Shown: one piece after another, positions 35,501 through 59,300 of the stretch
Position numbering within the stretch: position 1 is the first letter of the stretch
How the letters are laid out: each line of letters begins with the position of its first letter
Source of the DNA: Mobula hypostoma
Taxonomy: Eukaryota
Assembly (NCBI RefSeq): GCF_963921235.1
Contig: NC_086108.1
Coordinates: forward strand, 10,168,001 to 10,232,000
Length of the DNA stretch: 64,000 bases
Direction: 5' to 3'
The notes under the pieces: generated by a model
What the model saw: the letters and a program-made list of their open reading frames with translations, nothing else
Databases searched by the model: none
Told to the model about the DNA's origin: nothing
Translations under genes and position numbers: made by a program

Positions 35501-36469
35501 AAAACTTGGCTGTAGTGTTGGAGAATGAGACCAAATGGTTCAATTAAATAGGAACGTTGGAACCATTGTGGGATTTTAGTGAAAGTTACAGCAACTCAAT
35601 AACTGGTCCTCTAATGAGCTGTAGATAAACAGACCACTGCTGTGAGAACCCAAGCAGTGCTGTGACCTTCTGATTTATAATTCACCCTTTCACAGCCAAT
35701 GGCTTTTTGCAGGTTAACTGTCAGCAACCAATCAGTGCACAGTGATTCAAAGATTCAAAGTATATTTATCATCAAACTATGTATGCAACATACAACTCTG
35801 AGATGCATCTTTCCTACAGACAGCCAAAACAAAGAAACACCATGGAACCCGTTCAAAGAAAAAGATCAAACCGCCAATGCACAAAAAAAATCAAACTCCA
35901 ACCCACAGAGTCATTGAAAGAATCCAGGCATATTCAGCTCAGTTCAACCTAGTGCAATGTCAGACGTTAGCTTCAGGCCGCAAAGCCAGTCCATCCAGAT
36001 CAAAATCGCACAATATCACAGCAAAAAACAGGTGCAATCAGAAACAAGAAACAATTGATAACATAAACTAAAGAGTCCAATCCACAAACTGCGTCAATTA
36101 AACCTTGCCCAACAACCAGGACTCCGGCACCATCATCCGACAGCATCGAGCGAGAGGGAGAGAGAGACTGTTTGCATGCAGACACCTTCCTCTGGGAGCA
36201 GTGAGTGAGTGGTGGCAGCGAGAGACCGTCACATGCAGTCACCTTCCACCAGGAGCAGCAAGTGAGAGGGAGAGAGAAACTGCTCATCTTCCACTCTCGT
36301 CCTTGATGACTTTCCATCTTCCTTGACGCGAATCTTCAATTGGCGAGATCAGTGAGAAATGGAGTCAATCATGGGCTCGTGCCCCGCCCCGTCTCCAGGC
36401 TTCTTGACCTCAATGCAGCACACTCCGCTCGGAGTGCAAAGAGGCGGGTTCCAGATGTTAAAGGACCTC

Positions 36470-37060
36470 CTGGGGAGACTGAGGTCCTTTAACATTTGCC
36501 GGACGATGCTGAGGATGTTCTACGAGTGTGTGGTGGCCAGTGTGATCATGTTTGCTGTTGTGTGCTGGGGCAGCAGGCTGAGGGTAGCAGACACCAACAG
36601 AATCAACAAACTCATTCGTGAGGCCAGTGATGCTGTGGGGATGGAACTGGACTCTCTGACGGTGGTGTCTGAAAAGAGGATGCTGTCCAAGTTGCATGCC
36701 ATCTTGGTCAATGTCTCCCATCCACTACATAATGTACTGGGTGGGCACAGGAGTACATTCAGCCAGAGACTCATTCCACCGAGATGCAACACAGAGTGTC
36801 ATAGGACGTCATTTCTGCCTGTGGCCATCAAACTTTACAACTCCTCCCTTGGAGGGTCAGACACCCTGAGCCAATAGGCTGGTCTTGGACTTATTTCATA
36901 ATTTACTAGTATAATTTACATATTATTATTTAACTATTTATGGTTCTATTACTATTTATTATTTACGGTGCAACTGTAACGAAAACCAATTTCCCCCTGG
37001 GATCAATAAAGAATGACTGTGACTATGACTATGACTATGATTATGATTATGACTATGACT
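36470..37060 (+). mobile_element. Young Rex1-like 3' end with (ACTATG)n tail
   Basis: RLRSFNICRTMLRMFYECVVASV...SFLPVAIKLYN. Confidence 0.85.
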
Positions 37061-37774
37061 TGATGGAAAGACCTGCACAAATCAACTCCTGGAACAGATC
37101 GTCTCACTGAAACCTGGCGGGATTCCCCTTGATCATAATGTCAGTGGGCTCTGTGATTTATCGGGCAATTGCTGGGCCTGGTATTGGGCAGAATTACTCC
37201 TGCTCAATCCCTGGCTGCAATTTCCAATCTAGGCCCTTGGTCAAGACCTTCCCTGATATTCGATTCTGGTCACCACATTAAGCAAAGCATTTGGAGGGTT
37301 CAAAGAGGGTGCGAAAGAGGTTTTGCCAGGATGCTGTTTGGATTGGGGTGCATGTGCTATAAGGAGAGGTTGGACAAAATCGGGCTGTTTTCTCTGGAGG
37401 CTGAGTTAAGACCTAATAGAAGTTCGTTCAAATTTCAAAGTTCAAATTAAATTTTATTATCAAAGTACACATATGTCACTACGTACAACCCTGAGATTCA
37501 TTTTCCTGCGGGCACTCTCAGCAAATCTATCGAATAGTAACTATAACAGGATCAATGAAAGATCAACCAGGAGACTACAAACTGTGCAGATACAAACATA
37601 AATAAATAGAAATAAATAATAACAATATGAGATATTGAGATAATGAATCCTTAAAAGTGGTTTGTAGGAACATTTCAATGGATGGGCAAGTGAGTGTGGT
37701 TATCTCTTTTTGTTCAAGAGCCTGATGGTTGTGGTAAGTGTTCTTGAACACGGTGGTGTTATGTTACTGCTGTT

Positions 37775-37858
37775 TAACTGTGTAATCTCTTTTTCATGCT
37801 GAGACTTCATCATTTCAATATTACTTCTCAATTCCTTCACTTGTGCTTTCACTTCTTC
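37775..37858 (-). pseudogene. SH3KBP1: Captured CIN85/CD2AP-family C-terminal coiled-coil fragment (28 codons)
   Basis: EEVKAQVKELRSNIEMMKSQHEKEITQL vs recalled human CIN85 [28 protein letters not shown]. Confidence 0.65.
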
Positions 37859-38134
37859 CTTATACTGTGCCCACTGTGAGCGTTCTTGCTCTAGACGGTG
37901 ATGAAACTGAACCTCATATTCTCTCAGTATCCCTTTCATTATCGCCTGCATTGAAGCAACCTTCTCCTGCCATTGCTTTTTCACATCAGCAATTGCCTCC
38001 TGTTTGGTCGTCTCAGACACTGCAGCTGGGGCTTTTATATTCACCATGTCAGCATTTGCCGCCATGAGCTGGAGCTGCAGTCGAGTGACATCACCTTCTG
38101 CCGACTGTAATGCAACATTCCGTCGCTTCAGCTC
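37856..38134 (-). pseudogene. RABEP1: Captured Rabaptin-5 N-terminal coiled-coil fragment (93 codons)
   Basis: NIKAPAAVSETTKQEAIADVKKQWQEKVASMQAIMK...QFHHRLEQERSQWAQYKE aligns ungapped to recalled human RABEP1 NIKAIATVSENTKQEAIDEVKRQWREEVASLQAVMK...QFHLRLEQERTQWAQYRE. Confidence 0.88.
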
Positions 38135-39308
38135 TGGGTCACTATCCAGGACAAAAATTCTTTTCACCAAATTAAGTCTTTCATAGGCAGATAAACCCAG
38201 AATTGACTCTACATTTTTTGGCACGACCACAACTGAAAGCGTATGCACAATATTTTTGTGTGATACCTTTGCTATGCATGTTCCTTTAACTGGAATGTCT
38301 GCTCCTGAATACCCGGTCACTTTTATATTTGTCTGATGCAACTTCGGTCTTGGCTTTAAAGCATTAAACTAGGATTCTGCAAGAACATTTACTTGCACTC
38401 CAGTATCACGGTTAAACAGAATATTGTCTTGATTCACTTGCAACAGAATAGTCCAGTCATTCTAACTTAGTTTATTTTCACAAAGCACATCTATATAAAA
38501 TTCCTCACGTTCATCTTCAAGCACAGCATTTACTTGTTTCATTTTATTTTCCTTCTTTCTACTTCTACAACAGAGTGAAAAATGATTAATCTTACCGCAG
38601 CCATTGCAAATTTTGCCATATGCGGGACACTGATTTGGACGATGTTCCCGCGCACAGCCATCACATGACTTTTTTCTTTCCAATACTGTCTTGCTCTCTG
38701 TCAGTTTCGTCGACGTATTATTATATTTCTCGATGTATTCGCGCTTTTTTACAGCGTTTACATTGCAGTTTTCGGCAAAAAGCTCCTCAGCCTGCAACGT
38801 CACGGTCTCAGAAGCTTTGCAAAGCACCAAAGCTTTCTCAAAATTTAAACCTTTCTCTCAACAGCCTTTCTCTCAGAGCATTACCTCGAATACCACAAAC
38901 CAGTCTATCTTTAATGAGAGAATCCGTGAGCAATCCAAACTCACATGTTCTACTATGCTTTCTTAACTCAGTAACATACTGATCAATTGTTTCAGCGGCT
39001 CTCTGCGCACATGCGAAGAATTTATATCGCTCATACATTAAATTACGCTTAGGTATACAAAATACTTCAAATCTGCCCATTATCGACTTTAAATTGAAAT
39101 TATCTCCATCTTCAAAGACAAAATTATTATATACCTCTACTGCGAAATTCCCAATTACGTGGAGCAAAAGCGTGGCTTTGGTTTTTTCTGATTTTTCTTC
39201 ATAATCGATCACCGATAAGTACAGTTGAAACTGTTGTTTGTATATCCTCCAATTCTCAGCTACATTGCCAGTCAGCTGAAGTTTTGGTGGGGGTCGTAAA
39301 CCTTCCAT
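38135..39308 (-). pseudogene. Gypsy gag plus aspartic protease, disrupted
   Basis: MEGLRPPPKLQLTGNVAENW; IKDRLVCGI...LRERLL; knuckles CDGCAREH..CPAYGKICNGCGKINHF; protease RDTGVQVNVL; stops and frameshifts. Confidence 0.9.
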
Positions 39309-39396
39309 TTTACCGTTTACAGTTCGAACACTTTTCTTCTTTTTTTTTGTCTCGATTATCTCCGATTCTCTATTCTCCCGTATTATTCGTCTAGAA

Positions 39397-39411
39397 CCAC
39401 TTCTGACACCG
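39397..39411 (-). promoter_or_regulatory. Primer binding site (tRNA-Leu type)
   Basis: CGGTGTCAGAAGTGG right after the LTR, one mismatch from TGGTGTCAGAAGTGG. Confidence 0.7.
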
Positions 39412-39611
39412 TGTTATGTTACTTTTGTTTAAATGTACCGTGGGTTAACAGTAAAGAATTATATTCTTGAAGAATTAGAGAACTTTTATTTACAGTAATA
39501 AACAAACACGTCTTAACCGAGCCACGTGCTGGAACGTTCTGGCAATCCCGCGCGTGCTCAGTGCTCTGTCCAATCATGTACTGGCACATCAGTGCACGTG
39601 ATATCACCACA
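39412..39611 (-). repeat. 5' LTR (200 bp) of the chimeric element
   Basis: Minus strand TGTGGTGATAT...AACATAACA; its last ~21 bp recur at 37757-37777. Confidence 0.85.
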
Positions 39612-39896
39612 GGTGGTGGGAGTCCTGAGGCATAGATGAGTGAACAGCTGCTATTTTCAGCCCAGGTCCCAAATGTGTAATACTAGAAGGCATGTTGCTA
39701 AGTTCACAAGAGATATCCAAGTTCAACTTCAAGTTCAAGGTCAAGTGTATTGTCAATTAACCATATACACGTATACTGCCAAACAAAACACTGTTCCTCT
39801 GGGCCAAGGTGCACTACACAGTACATATACCTCACACACCACATGTAAAGTAATATTACCACAAATGAATTAACAAATGATAAGGTGCATTTGTGG

Positions 39897-40169: not shown

Positions 40170-40860
40170 TACATGATGAGATCTGAGCGTGGCAAGGAAT
40201 TCAGTCCTCTTACAGCCTGGGGGATGAAGCTGTTTCCCATCCTAACAGACCTTGCCCTAATGCCACGGTACAACCTGTCTGAACATAGGGAGTCAAAGAG
40301 ATTGTTGGACGGATGGGAGGGATCTTTGACAATGCTAAGGGCCCTGCGTGTGCAACATTCCTGATAAATACCTCAGATGGATGGAAGAGAGATCCTCTCA
40401 GCAGTCATTGCAATGCTTTGTAGGGACTTGTGGTCAATTGCCTTCCAGTTCCCATACCAGACAGTGTTACAGCTGCTGAGCACAGTCTCGATGGTGCTCC
40501 TGTAAAAATTGATTAAGGGCCTTGCTCCCCTCAATCTCCTCAGGACGTGGAGATGCTGCTGTGCTTTCTTGGCTAATGTGGTGGTATTGAGGGTCCAGGT
40601 GAGATGGTCTGCTGTGTATACTCCCAGAAACTTGGTGCTCCTAACTGTCTCCGTAGAAGAGCCATGTCTGTTGAGTGGTCAGCCTGTGCATTCCTAAAGT
40701 TCACAGTCATGTTTTCAGTCTTGTCCATGTTCACGCTCAAGTTGTGGTATTCACACCATTCTGACAGACGCTCTTCCTCCTCTCTGTACACTGTCTCGTC
40801 ATCGTTGTTGACGAGGCCAACCACGGCTGCGTCATCAGCGAACTTGATGATCCAATTTGA
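40170..40860 (-). mobile_element. Rex1/Babar RT fragment
   Basis: KFADDAAVVGLVNNDDETVYREEEERLSEWC. Confidence 0.8.
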
Positions 40861-41145
40861 GTGTTAGAGCCCGGAATGCGCCTAAGACTTTTGCACAGTA
40901 CTGTATTTGTCAACGTGGAGCAGAGAATGAGTTTGTAAATCTGGCAGGAGCAAAGGATGTTGGGAATAGTGAGGGAGGGATGTGGCACGGATGCAGATGC
41001 ACCTGGACCCGAGACTCCAGGCAAGGAGCTGTGAATGATAAGTACCAGGGGCAAAGCAGGAACAGATTCCTGGTGTGCCTCTACACCAGCGCACCATGAG
41101 TGCCTTCATGGTGGAAGCGGAGACCAGCAGCGATGACAGCTAGTT

Positions 41146-56412: not shown

Positions 56413-59300
56413 ATTTACAGGTTAAGTCTATCAGGCGGTCGAGTCCGTCGCTGTGATCTACGTAGCACCGGCGATGGCGGTTGTGCTGGCTCCGGCCTGA
56501 CTTCAGGTTTCAGCACGTTAGGCATTGTTAATCCCTCGTGCGTGTGCGTCGCGCCGGGTATGGGAGTGTCGTGTGGTGTCTGTATAGGGTTTGGGGTGCA
56601 CAGTGTGTCGTAGGTACATACATTGGTGGGTACGGGGTCAATAGTCACCACGGAGTGTTCAGGGTAGGGGCCCGGAGCTCCTGCGGGTGCCAGGTCGCAG
56701 ATGGAGACCGTGTCCTCTCACCCATCAGGTAAAACCACGTAGGCATACTGGGGGTTCGCATGAAGTAAGTGAACCCTCTCGACTATCCGGGAGTATTTAT
56801 GGCTCCTCGCATGTTTCCAGAGCAGCACTGACCCCGGGGACGTCAGCCAAGATGGTAGGGTGGTTCCAGTGGTCCATTTTCTGGGAAAAGAAAAGAGCCG
56901 CTCATGAGGGGTGGCATTGGTGGCTGTGCATAACAGGGAGCGGATGGAGTGGAGTGCCTCGGGAAGGACCTCCTGCCAGCGGGAGACCGGCAGTCCCTTT
57001 GACCTGAGGGCTAAGAGTGTGGCTTTCCACACCATGGCATTCTCCTTCTCCACCTGTCCATTCCCCCGGGGATTATAGCTCGTGGTCCTACTGATTGCAA
57101 TTCCCCTAGCCAGTAGATATTGGCGCAGCTCGTCACTCGTAAACGAGGACCCTCTGTCACTGTGGATATAGCATGGGTATCCGAACAGAGTGAAGAGCTT
57201 GTGCAGGGCTTTTATAACTGACGTGGTAGTGGTATCGGAGTAGAGGATGGCGAAGGGGAACCACGAGTACTCGTCAATTACGTTAAGAAAGTACACATTG
57301 CGGTCGGTGGAGGGAAGGGGGCCCTTAAAATCAACACTCAGTCGCTCAAAGGGGCGGGTGGCCTTGATGAGTGGTGCCTTTTCGGGTCGGTAGAAGTGTG
57401 GTTTGCACTCTGCGCAGACTTGGCAGTCCCTGGTCATCGTCTTGATCTCCTCAAGGGAGTAAGGCAGGTTCTGGGCTTTCACGAAGTGGAAAAGCCGGGT
57501 GACTCCCGGGTGGCAAAGGTCTACATGTAGGGCATATAGCCGGTCGATCTGCGCACTGGCGCATGTTCCCCGGGATAGGGCATTGGAGGGCTCGTTGAGC
57601 TTCCCAGGCCTGTACATGATGTCATAGTTGTAGGTGGAGAGTTCGATTCTCCACCTCAGAATTTTATCACTTTTGATTTTGCTCTGCTGCTGATTATTAA
57701 ACATGAATGCGACTGAGTGCTGGTCAGTTAGCAGGGTGAACCTTTTGCCGGCAAGATAGTGCCTCCAGTGCCTTATAGCTTCCACTATGGCCTGGGCCTC
57801 TTTCTCTACCACAGAGTGCCGAATTTCAGGGCCTTGAAGGGTACGGGAGAAGAACGCCACCGGTCTTCCTGCCTGGTTGAGGGTAGCAGCCAGCGCAAAG
57901 TCGGAGGCGTCACTCTCTACTTGGAAGGGAATGGCCTCATCTACCGCATGCATTGCTGCTTTGGCAATGTCCCCTTTTATGCGGCTGAAGGCCGCGCGGG
58001 CCTCGGCAGGGAGGGGGTGGGCCTTGTCTGCATACTTAGAGACCCATTGGGCGTAATATGAAAAGAAGCCCAGGCACCTTTTGAGGGCTCTGAGGGTATT
58101 GGGAGGAGGGAGTTCCAACAAGGGGCGCATACAGTCGGGGTCAGGGCCAATGACTCCATTCTCCACGACACACCCAAGGATAGCAAGTCGGGTGGTTCTG
58201 AACACACACTTGTCCTTGTTATAGGTGAGATTGAAAGCTTTGGCCGCTTGGAGAAATTTTTGGAGGTTGTTGTCGTGATCCTGCTGGTCGTGACCGCAGA
58301 TGGTGATGTTATCCAGATATGGGAACGTTGCTTCAGTTGGCACTGGTCCACCATCCGGTCCATTGCCCTCTGGAAGACAGATACACCATTCATGACACCA
58401 AAGGGGACGCGCAGGAACTGATAAAGCCTGCCATCCGCCTCGAAGGTGGTGTACGGGTGGTCCTCCCGGCGGATGGGGAGCTGATGGTAAGCGGATTTTA
58501 GGTCTATGGTCGAGTACACCTTGCACTGTGCTATCTGATTGACCATATCCGCGATGCGGGGTAGAGGGTATGCGTCGAGCTGCGTGAACCTATTGGTCTG
58601 GCTATAGTCCACGACCATCCTATTCTTCTCCCCGTTCCGAACAACCACCACCTGCGCCCTCCAAGGACTTGTGCTTGCCTCAATGACCCCCTCCCTGAGC
58701 AGCCGCTGCACCTCTGACTTAATGAAAGCTCTGTCCCCCGCGCTGTACCTCCTGCTTTTAGTTGTCACGGGTTTACAGTCGGGGGTCAGGTTGGCGAACA
58801 GCGGTGGGGGAGGGATCCTGAGGGTGGAGAGGCCGCAAGTGGTGTCGGTAGTGTGGCAGTTGGCATGGTGTTGGGTGGGATGCGCGGGTCGGTGTGTGTG
58901 TGTGTGGTCAGTAGCGGGGTACGTGACATATCTCTACAAAACTGGTGATTTATGACAGTAATTGGCGGGAGGGGCCCATCATACTCCATTGTCACGCTTT
59001 TCAGGTGGCTCTGGAAGTCCAACCCCAACAGCACAGGGGCACACAGTTGAGGCAAGACCAGTAACGTAAAGTCCCGATACTCTGTGCCCTGCACCACTAG
59101 TGTCGCTACACAACCCCCCGGATGTCTGTTGTATGCGATCTGGAGGCCATGGTGACCCTCTGACTTACCGGCCGTATCATGAGTCCACAATGCTGCACCG
59201 TGGCCGGGTGGATAAAACTCTCCGTGCTGCCTGTGTCAAACAGGCAGCTTGTCCTGTGCCCCTCCACCAGGATGTCCATCATTGACCTTGCAAGCTGGTG
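56413..59300 (-). pseudogene. Gypsy pol (PR-RT-RNaseH-IN), frameshifted
   Basis: LFDTGS, IDLKSAYHQL, VPFGV, YLDN, ESDASD, TDQHS, H-HPG-C--C, SVDFKGP, HSDRGSSF, GNGQVE. Confidence 0.95.

What the first reader, a model, noticed from the sequence alone, without database searches (positions are those of the whole stretch)
37757..39611. LTR retroelement that captured two host mRNA pieces (RABEP1 + SH3KBP1-like) in frame with its protease
Seen: a TG..CA element with GGTGG TSDs, a 200-bp LTR, PBS, gag and protease. Where RT should begin, the frame continues without a stop (..NLVKRIFVLDSDP|ELKRRNVALQ..QWAQYKE|EVKAQVKELRSNIEMMKSQHEKEITQL). Recalled knowledge: the first 93 codons align ungapped to the Rabaptin-5 N-terminal coiled coil (roughly 60% identity by eye to human), and the next 28 to the CIN85/CD2AP C-terminal coiled coil. 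Both are endocytic adaptors from unrelated genes. Inference: serial template switching onto co-packaged mRNAs made a gag-PR-RABEP1-CIN85 chimera with both junctions in frame, resembling retroviral gene transduction. This copy has stops in gag/PR.
Basis: partly seen in the sequence, partly recalled or inferred. Interest (0 to 1): 0.92.

Follow-up and report, generated by a model that had tools for sequence, protein, structure and literature searches.

The report
Jumping gene carrying stolen host coils
A defective virus-like jumping gene in a ray genome replaced its copying enzymes with spliced pieces of two host trafficking genes, fused in frame, and then spread to well over a hundred copies.

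Summary
Window 37757-39610 (minus strand) is one decayed copy of a non-autonomous Ty3/Gypsy-type LTR retrotransposon.

**What replaced RT-RNaseH-IN**
- Intron-free RABEP1 codons 61-153 follow the protease in frame.
- SH3KBP1 coiled-coil codons come next, also in frame.
- Both pieces match the genome's own multi-exon genes: 263 of 279 nt for RABEP1 and 79 of 82 nt for SH3KBP1.

**The window copy is 3'-truncated.** Nineteen other copies examined show the full design:
- gag, PR, RABEP1(61-153), SH3KBP1(617-662), RABEP1(157-171), the integrase C-terminal tail, a stop, PPT and a 3' LTR.
- The SH3KBP1 coil therefore sits inside the RABEP1 piece.

**Spread and relatives**
- The RABEP1|SH3KBP1 junction occurs 136 times across the genome.
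- Sampled copies have their own 5-bp target duplications.
- Sister forms also exist: RABEP1 only, and SH3KBP1 only (about 110 matches).
- Every junction has 4-9 nt of microhomology and keeps the reading frame.
- Stingray gene models carry the same junctions.

**Verdict.** This is LTR-mediated retroposition and exon shuffling, a known mechanism (Tan 2016), at unusually high copy number in a vertebrate. All copies examined are broken. I found no evidence that the coil has a function.

The parts
39611..39615 (.). Target-site duplication, GGTGG, on the 5' side of the minus-strand element.
   Evidence: Read directly. The same 5 bases occur at 37752-37756.
39412..39610 (-). 5' LTR, 199 bp, TG..CA.
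   Evidence: It matches the LTRs of 19 of 19 other loci at 83-93%. In the family it is paired with a 3' LTR.
39394..39411 (-). Primer-binding-site-like run directly after the LTR: CGGTGTCAGAAGTGGTTC. In other copies it reads TGGTGTCAGAAGTGG.
   Evidence: 6 of 6 other copies that were printed start with TGG. The primer tRNA was not identified.
38838..39308 (-). gag, N-terminal part, from the ATG at 39308. It ends early because of a frameshift in this copy.
   Evidence: ORF list. The protein is collinear with gag of relatives L041-L043. Pfam gave no hit.
38462..38857 (-). gag C-terminal part with a CX2CX4HX4C zinc knuckle (CNGCGKINHFSLCC). It ends at an in-frame TAG.
   Evidence: the motif was read by eye. 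The segment is collinear with relatives.
38135..38461 (-). Aspartic protease region with a DTG motif. It is broken by an in-frame TAG at 38369-38371.
   Evidence: In relatives the same region hits Pfam gag-asp_proteas at E 6.4e-9.
37856..38134 (-). RABEP1 codons 61-153, intron-free. The exon 3|exon 4 boundary lies at 37933|37932. The junction with the protease shares AGAG (38132-38135).
   Evidence: Pfam Rabaptin E 4e-38. 263 of 279 nt and 83 of 93 aa identical to the genome's own RABEP1 exons.
37774..37855 (-). SH3KBP1 (CIN85) C-terminal coiled-coil codons 617-644, intron-free. The exon boundary lies at 37794|37793. It joins RABEP1 at a shared GAAG (37855-37858).
   Evidence: PDB 5abs and 2n64, E 0.0015. 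79 of 82 nt identical to the genome's own SH3KBP1 exons.
37757..37773 (-). Last 17 nt of the 3' LTR, joined to the SH3KBP1 piece at a shared TTAA (37774-37777). About 480 bp are missing here: the rest of the coil, the integrase tail, the stop, the PPT and most of the LTR.
   Evidence: Direct repeat D3. All 19 other loci carry a further 240-415 nt before a full 3' LTR. None of the 39 other scored copies matches these 17 nt.
37752..37756 (.). Target-site duplication, GGTGG, on the 3' side.

Best explanation
**What it is.** The window holds one dead copy of a non-autonomous Ty3/Gypsy-type LTR retrotransposon family, which I call family B.

**How it arose (inferred).**
1. During reverse transcription inside virus-like particles, the enzyme switched templates at short shared sequences. 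It went from the element's RNA onto spliced host RABEP1 mRNA and back.
2. That replaced almost all of RT-RNaseH-IN with RABEP1 codons 61-171, joined in frame to the last ~50 codons of integrase. This is form B0, which still keeps 53 RT codons.
3. Later switches or deletions, again at microhomologies, removed the RT remnant and a further 27 nt of the integrase tail.
4. They also inserted 46 codons of the SH3KBP1 coiled coil in place of RABEP1 codons 154-156.
5. The SH3KBP1 piece probably came from co-packaged RNA of a sister chimeric family (A) that already carried SH3KBP1. This step is inferred and remains open.

**How it spread.**
- The chimera kept its LTRs, PBS, PPT and gag-PR.
- It could therefore be transcribed, packaged, reverse-transcribed and integrated by enzymes supplied in trans by RT/IN-bearing relatives.
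- It spread to at least 136 places.

**This copy and the coil.**
- The window copy later lost about 480 bp at its 3' end through a TTAA-mediated deletion, and it has decayed.
- The coiled-coil module is most likely a passenger.
- The consistent in-frame junctions suggest that only variants with one continuous ORF ending near the 3' LTR amplified well. One possible reason is that they avoid RNA decay triggered by an early stop. This is inference.
For: **Shown: the inserts are host-derived and spliced.**
- Pfam Rabaptin, E 4e-38. PDB SH3KBP1 coil, E 3.1e-14.
- Named ray RABEP1 and SH3KBP1 proteins.
- Both parental genes were located in the same genome, with GT-AG introns of about 9 kb, 1.1 kb and 2 kb that the element lacks.
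- Window copy against the parents: 263 of 279 nt and 79 of 82 nt.

**Shown: it is a family.**
- The first look found 457 candidates. All 40 that were scored matched at 90-100%.
- Junction pattern counts, with a reversed-pattern control of 0 in every case:

| Junction | Matches |
|---|---|
| RABEP1\|SH3KBP1 | 136 |
| PR\|RABEP1 | 53 |
| RABEP1\|IN | 69 |
| B0 (RT\|RABEP1) | 9 |
| Family A (RT\|SH3KBP1) | 111, including the host gene itself |

**Shown: integration was by integrase.**
- The 5-bp target duplication is perfect in the window copy and in 4 of 8 full copies, and 4 of 5 bases match in one more.
- PPT plus a full 3' LTR are present in 4 of 4 copies printed.

**Shown: RT/IN-bearing relatives exist.**
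- L042 has PR, RT, RNase H, an H2C2 zinc domain and an integrase core in that order.
- By my count, about 70 of the 150 scored matches are RT-only.

**Shown: the tail is the integrase C-terminus**.

**Shown: intermediate forms exist** (L045, L046, L047, L041).

**Shown: microhomology of 4-9 nt at all 8 junctions**.

**Shown: the same junctions occur in gene models that a source names from two stingray species** (P0003, P0018).

**Mechanism precedent.** Tan et al. 2016, PMC5131818 (passages read).
Against: - No RT/IN-bearing partner with LTRs close to family B's was identified. The three relatives fetched are only 76-78% identical over gag-PR, and L042 is itself degraded.
- The source of the SH3KBP1 piece is unresolved. 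The 7 family A copies carry no shared difference from the host gene over those 138 nt.
- The RABEP1 5' junction lies one base inside exon 3. That could hint at a splicing-based origin instead.
- Nothing shows current activity:
  - LTR pairs differ by 7-12%.
  - The longest ORFs are 116-370 codons in 8 full copies, against about 595 expected.
  - 0 of 15 delimited host modules are open.
- The frame argument has an ascertainment problem. Family A was found through an annotated protein. The null in-frame share of shared words is already 0.43-0.54.
Confidence: 0.88

Rival explanations
1. Classical retroviral-type transduction. An element sat upstream of, or in intron 2 of, RABEP1. A read-through transcript was spliced onto exon 3, and only the 3' junction arose by template switching.
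For: In both B0 and B the RABEP1 sequence starts one base inside exon 3. If breakpoints were random, that would be a roughly 1-in-25 coincidence (my estimate).
Against: - The first exon base is missing.
- The element side has no GT donor at the join.
- The join sits on a 6-nt shared AGAGCT (B0) or on AGAG (B), like the other seven junctions.
Confidence: 0.07
2. The SH3KBP1 coil in family B was copied directly from host SH3KBP1 mRNA in a second, independent capture, not from sister family A.
For: - The 138-nt piece in B is almost identical to the host cDNA.
- Its end points (E617 to E662) differ from those of family A (aa 541-667).
Against: - Two separate captures of the same host gene by one element clade is unparsimonious.
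- Element RNAs are the RNAs normally co-packaged (general knowledge of retroelements).
- Family A is abundant, with about 110 matches.
- No diagnostic site tells the two sources apart.
Confidence: 0.35
3. Capture at the DNA level, or an assembly artefact: a segmental duplication or a misjoin that put gene fragments next to an LTR element.
For: None found.
Against: - Three introns are precisely absent.
- There are 136 dispersed junction matches on many contigs, with 0 in the controls.
- Copies have their own target duplications.
- The same junctions occur in proteins named from other species.
Confidence: 0.01
4. One or more copies are domesticated host genes that encode a useful Gag-PR-coiled-coil protein.
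For: - A source lists stingray gene models built on such copies (P0003, P0018, P0004).
- Some sister copies keep ORFs of 300-450 codons.
Against: - Across the 20 family B copies examined there are 18 stop codons in the host-derived parts, and 8 copies have frameshifts in the RABEP1 part.
- 0 of 15 host modules are open.
- Difference rates at replacement sites are about 3%, similar in all three host pieces.
Confidence: 0.03

Closest known systems
LTR-mediated retroposition chimeras in animals (Tan et al. 2016, Genome Res, PMC5131818; passages read)
   Same: - Spliced host mRNA pieces replace part of the internal ORF of an LTR retrotransposon.
- Both LTRs are kept.
- There is microsimilarity at the switch points (median 6 bp in that paper, 4-9 nt here).
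- Chimeras can combine two or more parental genes.
- The loci can be retroposed again as non-autonomous elements.
   Different: - Copy number. In the passages I read, two fly retrocopies had more than one insertion site. Here one junction occurs 136 times, and sister forms occur about 110 and 9 times.
- A graded series of intermediates survives in one genome.
- All junctions keep the frame with gag-PR and with the integrase tail.
- The host is a cartilaginous fish.
Maize Bs1 (Elrouby and Bureau 2001, 2010, as described in PMC5131818; the original papers were not read)
   Same: An LTR retrotransposon whose interior combines exon pieces of several unlinked host genes. [quoted passage not shown]
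   Different: - It is a plant element with 1-5 copies.
- One of its three host pieces is out of frame.
Acutely transforming retroviruses with gag-onc fusions (recalled knowledge; Swain and Coffin 1992 is cited within PMC5131818)
   Same: Host cDNA replaces the replication genes and is fused in frame behind gag. The product is defective and depends on a helper.
   Different: - This is a germline element with no env. In relative L042 the integrase ORF ends 11 nt before the 3' LTR.
- The captured pieces are coiled-coil fragments of endocytic adaptors, not growth-control genes.
- The 5' junction shows microhomology rather than a read-through or splice signature.
Host domains captured by bird endogenous retroviruses (He et al. 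2025, Mol Biol Evol, PMC12287698; abstract and section 11 read)
   Same: Vertebrate retroelements carry domains of cellular origin. [quoted passage not shown]
   Different: - Those are mostly additions to otherwise complete ERVs, found by a domain search.
- The section I read does not describe junction anatomy, intron loss or amplification as a defective family.

Membership tests
LTR retrotransposon, Ty3/Gypsy type (non-autonomous derivative) | Direct long terminal repeats bounded by TG..CA at both ends | tested here: met
   8 of 19 fetched loci hold both LTRs, 87.7-92.6% identical within an element. The window copy keeps the 5' LTR and only 17 nt of the 3' LTR.
LTR retrotransposon, Ty3/Gypsy type (non-autonomous derivative) | Short target-site duplication made by integrase | tested here: met
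   The window has GGTGG on both sides. The 5-bp duplication is perfect in 4 of 8 full copies, matches at 4 of 5 bases in one, and is weaker in three.
LTR retrotransposon, Ty3/Gypsy type (non-autonomous derivative) | tRNA primer-binding site next to the 5' LTR | tested here: inconclusive
   TGGTGTCAGAAGTGG directly follows the LTR in 6 of 6 printed copies and in 3 relatives. No matching tRNA was sought or found.
LTR retrotransposon, Ty3/Gypsy type (non-autonomous derivative) | Polypurine tract before the 3' LTR | tested here: met
   A purine run (AAGGAAAGGAAGA, or a variant one base different) abuts the 3' LTR in 4 of 4 full copies printed. It is deleted in the window copy.
LTR retrotransposon, Ty3/Gypsy type (non-autonomous derivative) | pol order PR-RT-RNaseH-IN in autonomous relatives | tested here: met
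   L042 ORFs: gag-asp_proteas 6.4e-9, RVT_1 1.2e-5, RT_RNaseH_2 9.2e-26, Integrase_H2C2 3.8e-14, rve 0.0047. BEL/Pao-type elements share this order and were not formally excluded.
LTR retrotransposon, Ty3/Gypsy type (non-autonomous derivative) | Own reverse transcriptase and integrase | tested here: not met
   Family B has none apart from the last ~50 integrase codons. That is why it is called non-autonomous.
LTR-mediated retrocopy / chimeric retrogene (sensu Tan et al. 2016) | Host insert is intron-free and lies between the two LTRs, replacing internal ORF sequence | tested here: met
LTR-mediated retrocopy / chimeric retrogene (sensu Tan et al. 2016) | Microsimilarity at the switch points | tested here: met
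   Shared runs at the junctions: AGAGCT 6 nt, AGAG 4, GAAG 4, AGTGGAA 7, CAAGGAGA 8, ATGAAAGAG 9, GTCATAAA 8 or more, AGAAAGC 7. The element side was read from relatives, not from the true parent.
LTR-mediated retrocopy / chimeric retrogene (sensu Tan et al. 2016) | Secondary retroposition of the chimera | tested here: met
   136, 53 and 69 dispersed matches to three junction patterns, with controls of 0.
Rabaptin (RABEP1) protein family | Full architecture with the C-terminal Rab5-binding domain (PF09311) | tested here: not met
   Only codons 61-153 and 157-171 of 828 are present. Pfam finds only PF03528, profile positions 48-160 of 486. This is a fragment, not a member gene.
SH3KBP1 / CIN85 family | SH3 domains plus the C-terminal coiled coil | tested here: not met
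   Only the coiled coil is present: codons 617-662 of 671 in full copies and 617-644 in the window. There is no SH3 domain.
Transducing retrovirus | env gene or infectious retrovirus backbone, with a 5' junction made by read-through or splicing | tested here: not met
   Relative L042 has no room for env. The 5' junction shows microhomology and no donor site.

The most novel reading that the evidence does not exclude
The coiled-coil module is not a mere passenger. Variants were filtered for one continuous gag-PR-coil-integrase-tail ORF because the fusion protein itself helps the defective element. That protein would be a Gag-protease carrying self-associating coils from two endocytic adaptors, including part of the Rabaptin N-terminal region that binds Rab4 and Rab8. 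It might force multimerisation in place of the lost pol domains. It might instead steer assembly to endosomal membranes, so that the parasite out-competes its helper.
Probability: 0.12. Interest if true: 0.8.

Novelty: new member of a known kind. Interest (0 to 1): 0.5.

Why it matters
- **Scale.** It shows LTR-mediated exon shuffling in a vertebrate at a scale I found no report of: hundreds of copies rather than a handful.
- **A preserved series.** The stepwise intermediates survive in one genome. That gives a natural record of reverse-transcriptase template switching, with its microhomologies.
- **A testable idea.** The unbroken run of in-frame junctions suggests that non-autonomous LTR elements are constrained to keep one long ORF.
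- **Annotation.** Copies of this family are annotated as "RABEP1-like" or uncharacterized genes in stingray genomes. They will inflate gene counts and confuse orthology for RABEP1 and SH3KBP1 in rays.

Tried and rejected
- **RNA evidence.** No RNA holder was listed.
- **Complex prediction.** I wanted to test whether the coil module self-associates. The job was never accepted because the queue was full, so I dropped it.
- **Earlier findings of this scan.** Nothing on this family. One unrelated note supplied a paper lead.
- **Source of the SH3KBP1 piece.** A comparison of 7 family A copies, 19 family B copies and the host cDNA was uninformative.
  - Family A has no shared difference from the host.
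  - Family B shares only one, T to A (F to I), in 17 of 19 copies.
- **dN/dS of copies against the parental cDNA.** Values were 0.41, 1.28 and 0.13 for the three pieces.
  - I rejected this as a test of selection.
  - Shared synonymous changes on the host-gene lineage are counted 20 times over.
  - Private decay dominates the rest.
- **A supposed "RT9|RABEP1 exon 4" family.** I thought L041 defined one, but its junction pattern occurs once only.
- **Conservation of the RABEP1 module.** I suspected it was far better conserved between lineages than the backbone.
  - Region-by-region comparison showed the adjacent protease region at 88-92% and the module at 91-100%, over only 46-70 nt.
  - That is not a clear anomaly.
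- **gag.** Pfam did not recognise it.
- **Literature.** I found no paper linking RABEP1 or SH3KBP1 with retrotransposon capture (1 irrelevant hit). A second search gave nothing relevant (7 papers held all terms, 5 listed).
Full report
**Observation**

The element lies on the minus strand of window 37757-39610.
- It is flanked by GGTGG at 37752-37756 and 39611-39615.
- From its 5' end it has a 199-bp LTR (39412-39610, TG..CA).
- Next comes a PBS-like run, CGGTGTCAGAAGTGGTTC. It reads TGGTGTCAGAAGTGG in 6 of 6 other copies that my script could print, and in three relatives.
- gag runs from the ATG at 39308.
- There is a frameshift near 38840-38857, then a zinc-knuckle ORF (38462-38857).
- The protease region carries two in-frame TAG stops (38462-38464 and 38369-38371).
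- A 222-codon open frame (37700-38368) runs out of the protease into foreign sequence.
- The only "second LTR" is a 26-nt direct repeat of the LTR's last bases.

Yes.
- Pfam Rabaptin (PF03528) hits the 126-codon stretch at E 4e-38, residues 1-115 on profile positions 48-160 of 486.
- The profile match runs over the second piece as well, so Pfam alone could not separate the two.
- The PDB search found the SH3KBP1 coiled coil (5abs, 2n64) at E 0.0015 on residues 91-122.
- A search of longer proteins with a fuller copy returned 75 proteins.
  - Nearly all are named SH3KBP1 or RABEP1, from rays, sharks and other vertebrates.
  - With that copy the PDB match rises to E 3.1e-14.
- The all-against-all HMMER search gave 138 proteins at E up to 0.001. 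The top two are short stingray proteins that are themselves copies of this chimera.

**The parental genes are in the same genome**

- Using parts of the named ray proteins, I located RABEP1 on contig C71 (minus strand) and SH3KBP1 on C18 (plus strand).
- I then fetched 100 kb next to each.
- The exons match proteins that a source names from a devil ray at 98-100%, apart from alignment overhang at exon ends. The genome is therefore that ray or a close relative.
- RABEP1 exon 3 encodes aa 60-127 and ends AIMK. Exon 4 starts ETLREY. They are separated by about 9 kb and have GT-AG ends.
- The last SH3KBP1 exons are separated by about 1.1 and 2.0 kb.
- The window copy is ungapped against the spliced sequences:
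  - RABEP1 aa 61-153: 83 of 93 residues, 263 of 279 nt.
  - SH3KBP1 from aa 617: 25 of 28 residues, 79 of 82 nt.
- Capture was therefore from processed mRNA, or from RNA already derived from it.

**It is a family, and the window copy is truncated**

- The 378-nt host-like stretch found 457 candidates in the 3.48-Gb assembly. All 40 that were scored matched.
- The 39 others are 90-94% identical, and their matches end at base 359-361 of the query.
- In all 19 loci fetched, the alignment to the window stops at 37774. A full 200-bp LTR follows 240-415 nt further on.
- Four full copies show what the window lacks:
  - the SH3KBP1 coil continues to ...LQMEVE (aa 662);
  - RABEP1 then resumes: RELTDLRRRLSEGQG, aa 157-171;
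  - about 50 more codons follow, then a stop, a purine run (AAGGAAAGGAAGA or a one-base variant) and the 3' LTR.
- The SH3KBP1 piece (46 codons) therefore sits inside the RABEP1 piece and replaces its codons AVE (154-156).
- The window copy lost about 480 bp between a TTAA in the coil and a TTAA near the LTR end. It kept 17 nt of LTR and both target duplications.
- I cannot tell whether the loss came before or after integration.

**Evidence for integration and age**

- Eight of the 19 loci hold both LTRs. The elements are about 2.3 kb long.
- LTR pairs within an element are 87.7-92.6% identical.
- Target duplications are perfect in 4 of 8, match at 4 of 5 bases in one, and are weaker in three.
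- The copies are old and dead:
  - the longest ORFs are 116-370 codons, where about 595 would be intact;
  - 0 of 15 delimited host modules (of 19 copies) are open;
  - across 20 copies the host parts hold 18 stops, and 8 copies have frameshifts in the RABEP1 part.
- If the neutral rate is near 1e-9 per site per year, the LTR divergence means tens of millions of years. That rate is recalled, not measured here.

**Copy numbers by junction**

Patterns of 24-31 nt were searched with up to 2-3 mismatches. The reversed-pattern control was 0 every time. Mismatch limits and CpG decay make these counts lower bounds.

| Junction | Matches |
|---|---|
| RABEP1\|SH3KBP1 | 136 |
| PR\|RABEP1 | 53 |
| RABEP1\|integrase tail | 69 |

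**Relatives and the route to the chimera**

- *RT/IN-bearing relative.* L042 has gag, protease, RT, RNase H, the H2C2 zinc domain and the integrase core in that order. That is the Ty3/Gypsy arrangement.
- *Origin of the tail.* L042's integrase C-terminus (…GDEVRIQDKMNTW…RSYMVQTEEGAVLRRN…) is the source of family B's tail. Family B's tail is 27 nt shorter.
- *Copies without the SH3KBP1 insert.* Using RABEP1 exon 4 as a DNA query, 24 places besides the gene match straight across the site where family B carries the insert. I fetched five of them:
  - L045 and L046 (form B0) read gag-PR-53 RT codons-RABEP1 61-171-integrase tail. Their junction pattern occurs 9 times.
  - L047 joins RT codon 9 to RABEP1 N92.
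  - L041 joins RT codon 9 to RABEP1 T129. Its junction is unique.
  - L044 is 5'-truncated.
  - All share the same RABEP1|integrase junction, which suggests a single original capture.
- *From B0 to B.* Family B differs from B0 in three ways:
  - a 159-nt in-frame loss of the RT remnant between two ACAGAG repeats;
  - the SH3KBP1 insert;
  - the 27-nt loss in the tail.
- *Family A.* This separate family reads gag-PR-about 65 RT codons-SH3KBP1 aa 541-667 (four exons, spliced)-integrase tail.
  - It is represented by L043 and by a stingray gene model, P0004.
  - Its 5' pattern occurs 111 times, including the host gene itself.
- *Breakdown.* Of the 150 scored matches, my reading of the table gives:
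  - 15 that span both the RT part and the SH3KBP1 part;
  - about 60 that hold the SH3KBP1 part with less RT;
  - 1 that is the host gene;
  - about 70 that are RT-only.

**Junction anatomy**

Every junction sits on a short shared sequence. The element side was read from relatives, not from the true parents.

| Junction | Shared sequence | Length (nt) |
|---|---|---|
| RT\|RABEP1 in B0 | AGAGCT | 6 |
| PR\|RABEP1 in B | AGAG | 4 |
| RABEP1\|SH3KBP1 | GAAG | 4 (10 of 12 alike) |
| SH3KBP1\|RABEP1 | AGTGGAA | 7 |
| RABEP1\|integrase | CAAGGAGA | 8 |
| L041 | ATGAAAGAG | 9 |
| RT\|SH3KBP1 in A | GTCATAAA | 8 or more |
| SH3KBP1\|integrase in A | AGAAAGC | 7 |

This matches the microsimilarity-dependent template switching described for LTR-mediated retroposition. 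That paper reports a median of 6 bp, multi-parent chimeras and secondary retroposition (PMC5131818, passages read).

**Frame**

- All ten rearrangements preserve the native reading frames on both sides. They comprise seven of the junctions tabulated above, the L047 junction and two internal deletions. The PR|RABEP1 junction of B counts as one of the two deletions.
- As a null, I counted words shared between the relative's pol ORFs and the two host cDNAs. The in-frame share is 0.43 (5-mers) to 0.54 (8-mers), not one third.
- Ten of ten is still unlikely by chance, at roughly 1 in 1000 if the share is 0.5.
- Caveats:
  - family A was found through an annotated ORF;
  - one junction is a singleton;
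  - the events may not be fully independent.
- I read this as a filter for a continuous ORF during amplification. It is not proof that the coil has a function.
- One point weighs against a designed coil. The insert adds a net 43 residues, which is not a multiple of seven.

**Other species and public reads**

- A protein that a source names from red stingray (P0003) has all four family B junctions.
- A protein named from Atlantic stingray (P0018) has the first two before a frameshift.
- The chimera is therefore shared with another ray family, either by descent or by transfer.
- Four public runs of unrecorded kind were laid on the window.
  - They hold long contigs that continue from the RABEP1 part into RABEP1 exon 2 and further into exon 4. 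They also hold contigs that continue from the SH3KBP1 part into upstream SH3KBP1 exon sequence. These are the spliced parental messages.
  - One 287-nt contig (X7, record 26) bridges the PR|RABEP1 junction, with 62 nt on the protease side.
  - That shows the junction exists in that run's organism. It does not show transcription.

**What is known, and the verdict**

- The mechanism and its main features are already described in animals (PMC5131818).
- Bird ERVs are reported to carry many host domains (PMC12287698, abstract and section 11 read).
- The Rabaptin-5 N-terminal region binds Rab4 and Rab8 (PMC4102244, passages read).
- I found no report of RABEP1 or SH3KBP1 capture.
- This is a new member of a known kind. 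Its notable features are:
  - its copy number;
  - the nested two-gene coil;
  - the preserved intermediates;
  - the unbroken frame.
Supplements of the cited papers were not opened.

Noticed in passing
P0003, P0018, P0004 (proteins returned): Gene models that a source names "rab GTPase-binding effector protein 1-like" or "uncharacterized protein" in two stingray species are copies of these chimeric retrotransposons. They contain zinc knuckle and protease remnants followed by host coils. They are probably annotation artefacts rather than genes.
   Followed up: partly
window 40373-40863 (minus) and 36356-36877 (plus): Remnants of other retroelements flank the insertion. One ORF has a weak RVT_1 match (E 0.0088). 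The next ORF matches Pfam ALKBH8_N (E 2.8e-12). The 173-codon ORF at 36356-36877 has no Pfam hit.
   Followed up: partly
window 37013-37060: A short tandem array of ATGACT/ATGATT-type units, seen as three 24-nt copies spaced 12 nt apart (family D1).
   Followed up: no
window 57570-57660: ARAGORN calls a 91-nt tRNA-Gly(CCC)-like sequence, the only one in the window. Its length suggests a tRNA-derived repeat rather than a working gene. This was not tested.
   Followed up: no
G000 places listed (PR|RABEP1 junction pattern): The CGA codon for RABEP1 R64 sits on a CpG. By my count of the 53 junction matches it reads TGA (stop) in about 16 and CAA in about 8. The excess of TGA over CAA could be chance, or it could mark a subfamily that spread with a stop at the very start of the host module. 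The second reading would argue against any need to translate the coil.
   Followed up: no
L042 (G000:C1:231933100-231939300, minus strand): The RT/IN-bearing relative is only about 4.2 kb from LTR to LTR. It has several frameshifts and a shortened integrase. The integrase ORF ends 11 nt before the 3' LTR, which leaves no room for an env gene.
   Followed up: partly
table: About 60 of the 150 scored matches to the RT-SH3KBP1 query begin at query residues 15-70. That suggests several further deletion variants of family A with shorter RT remnants.
   Followed up: no
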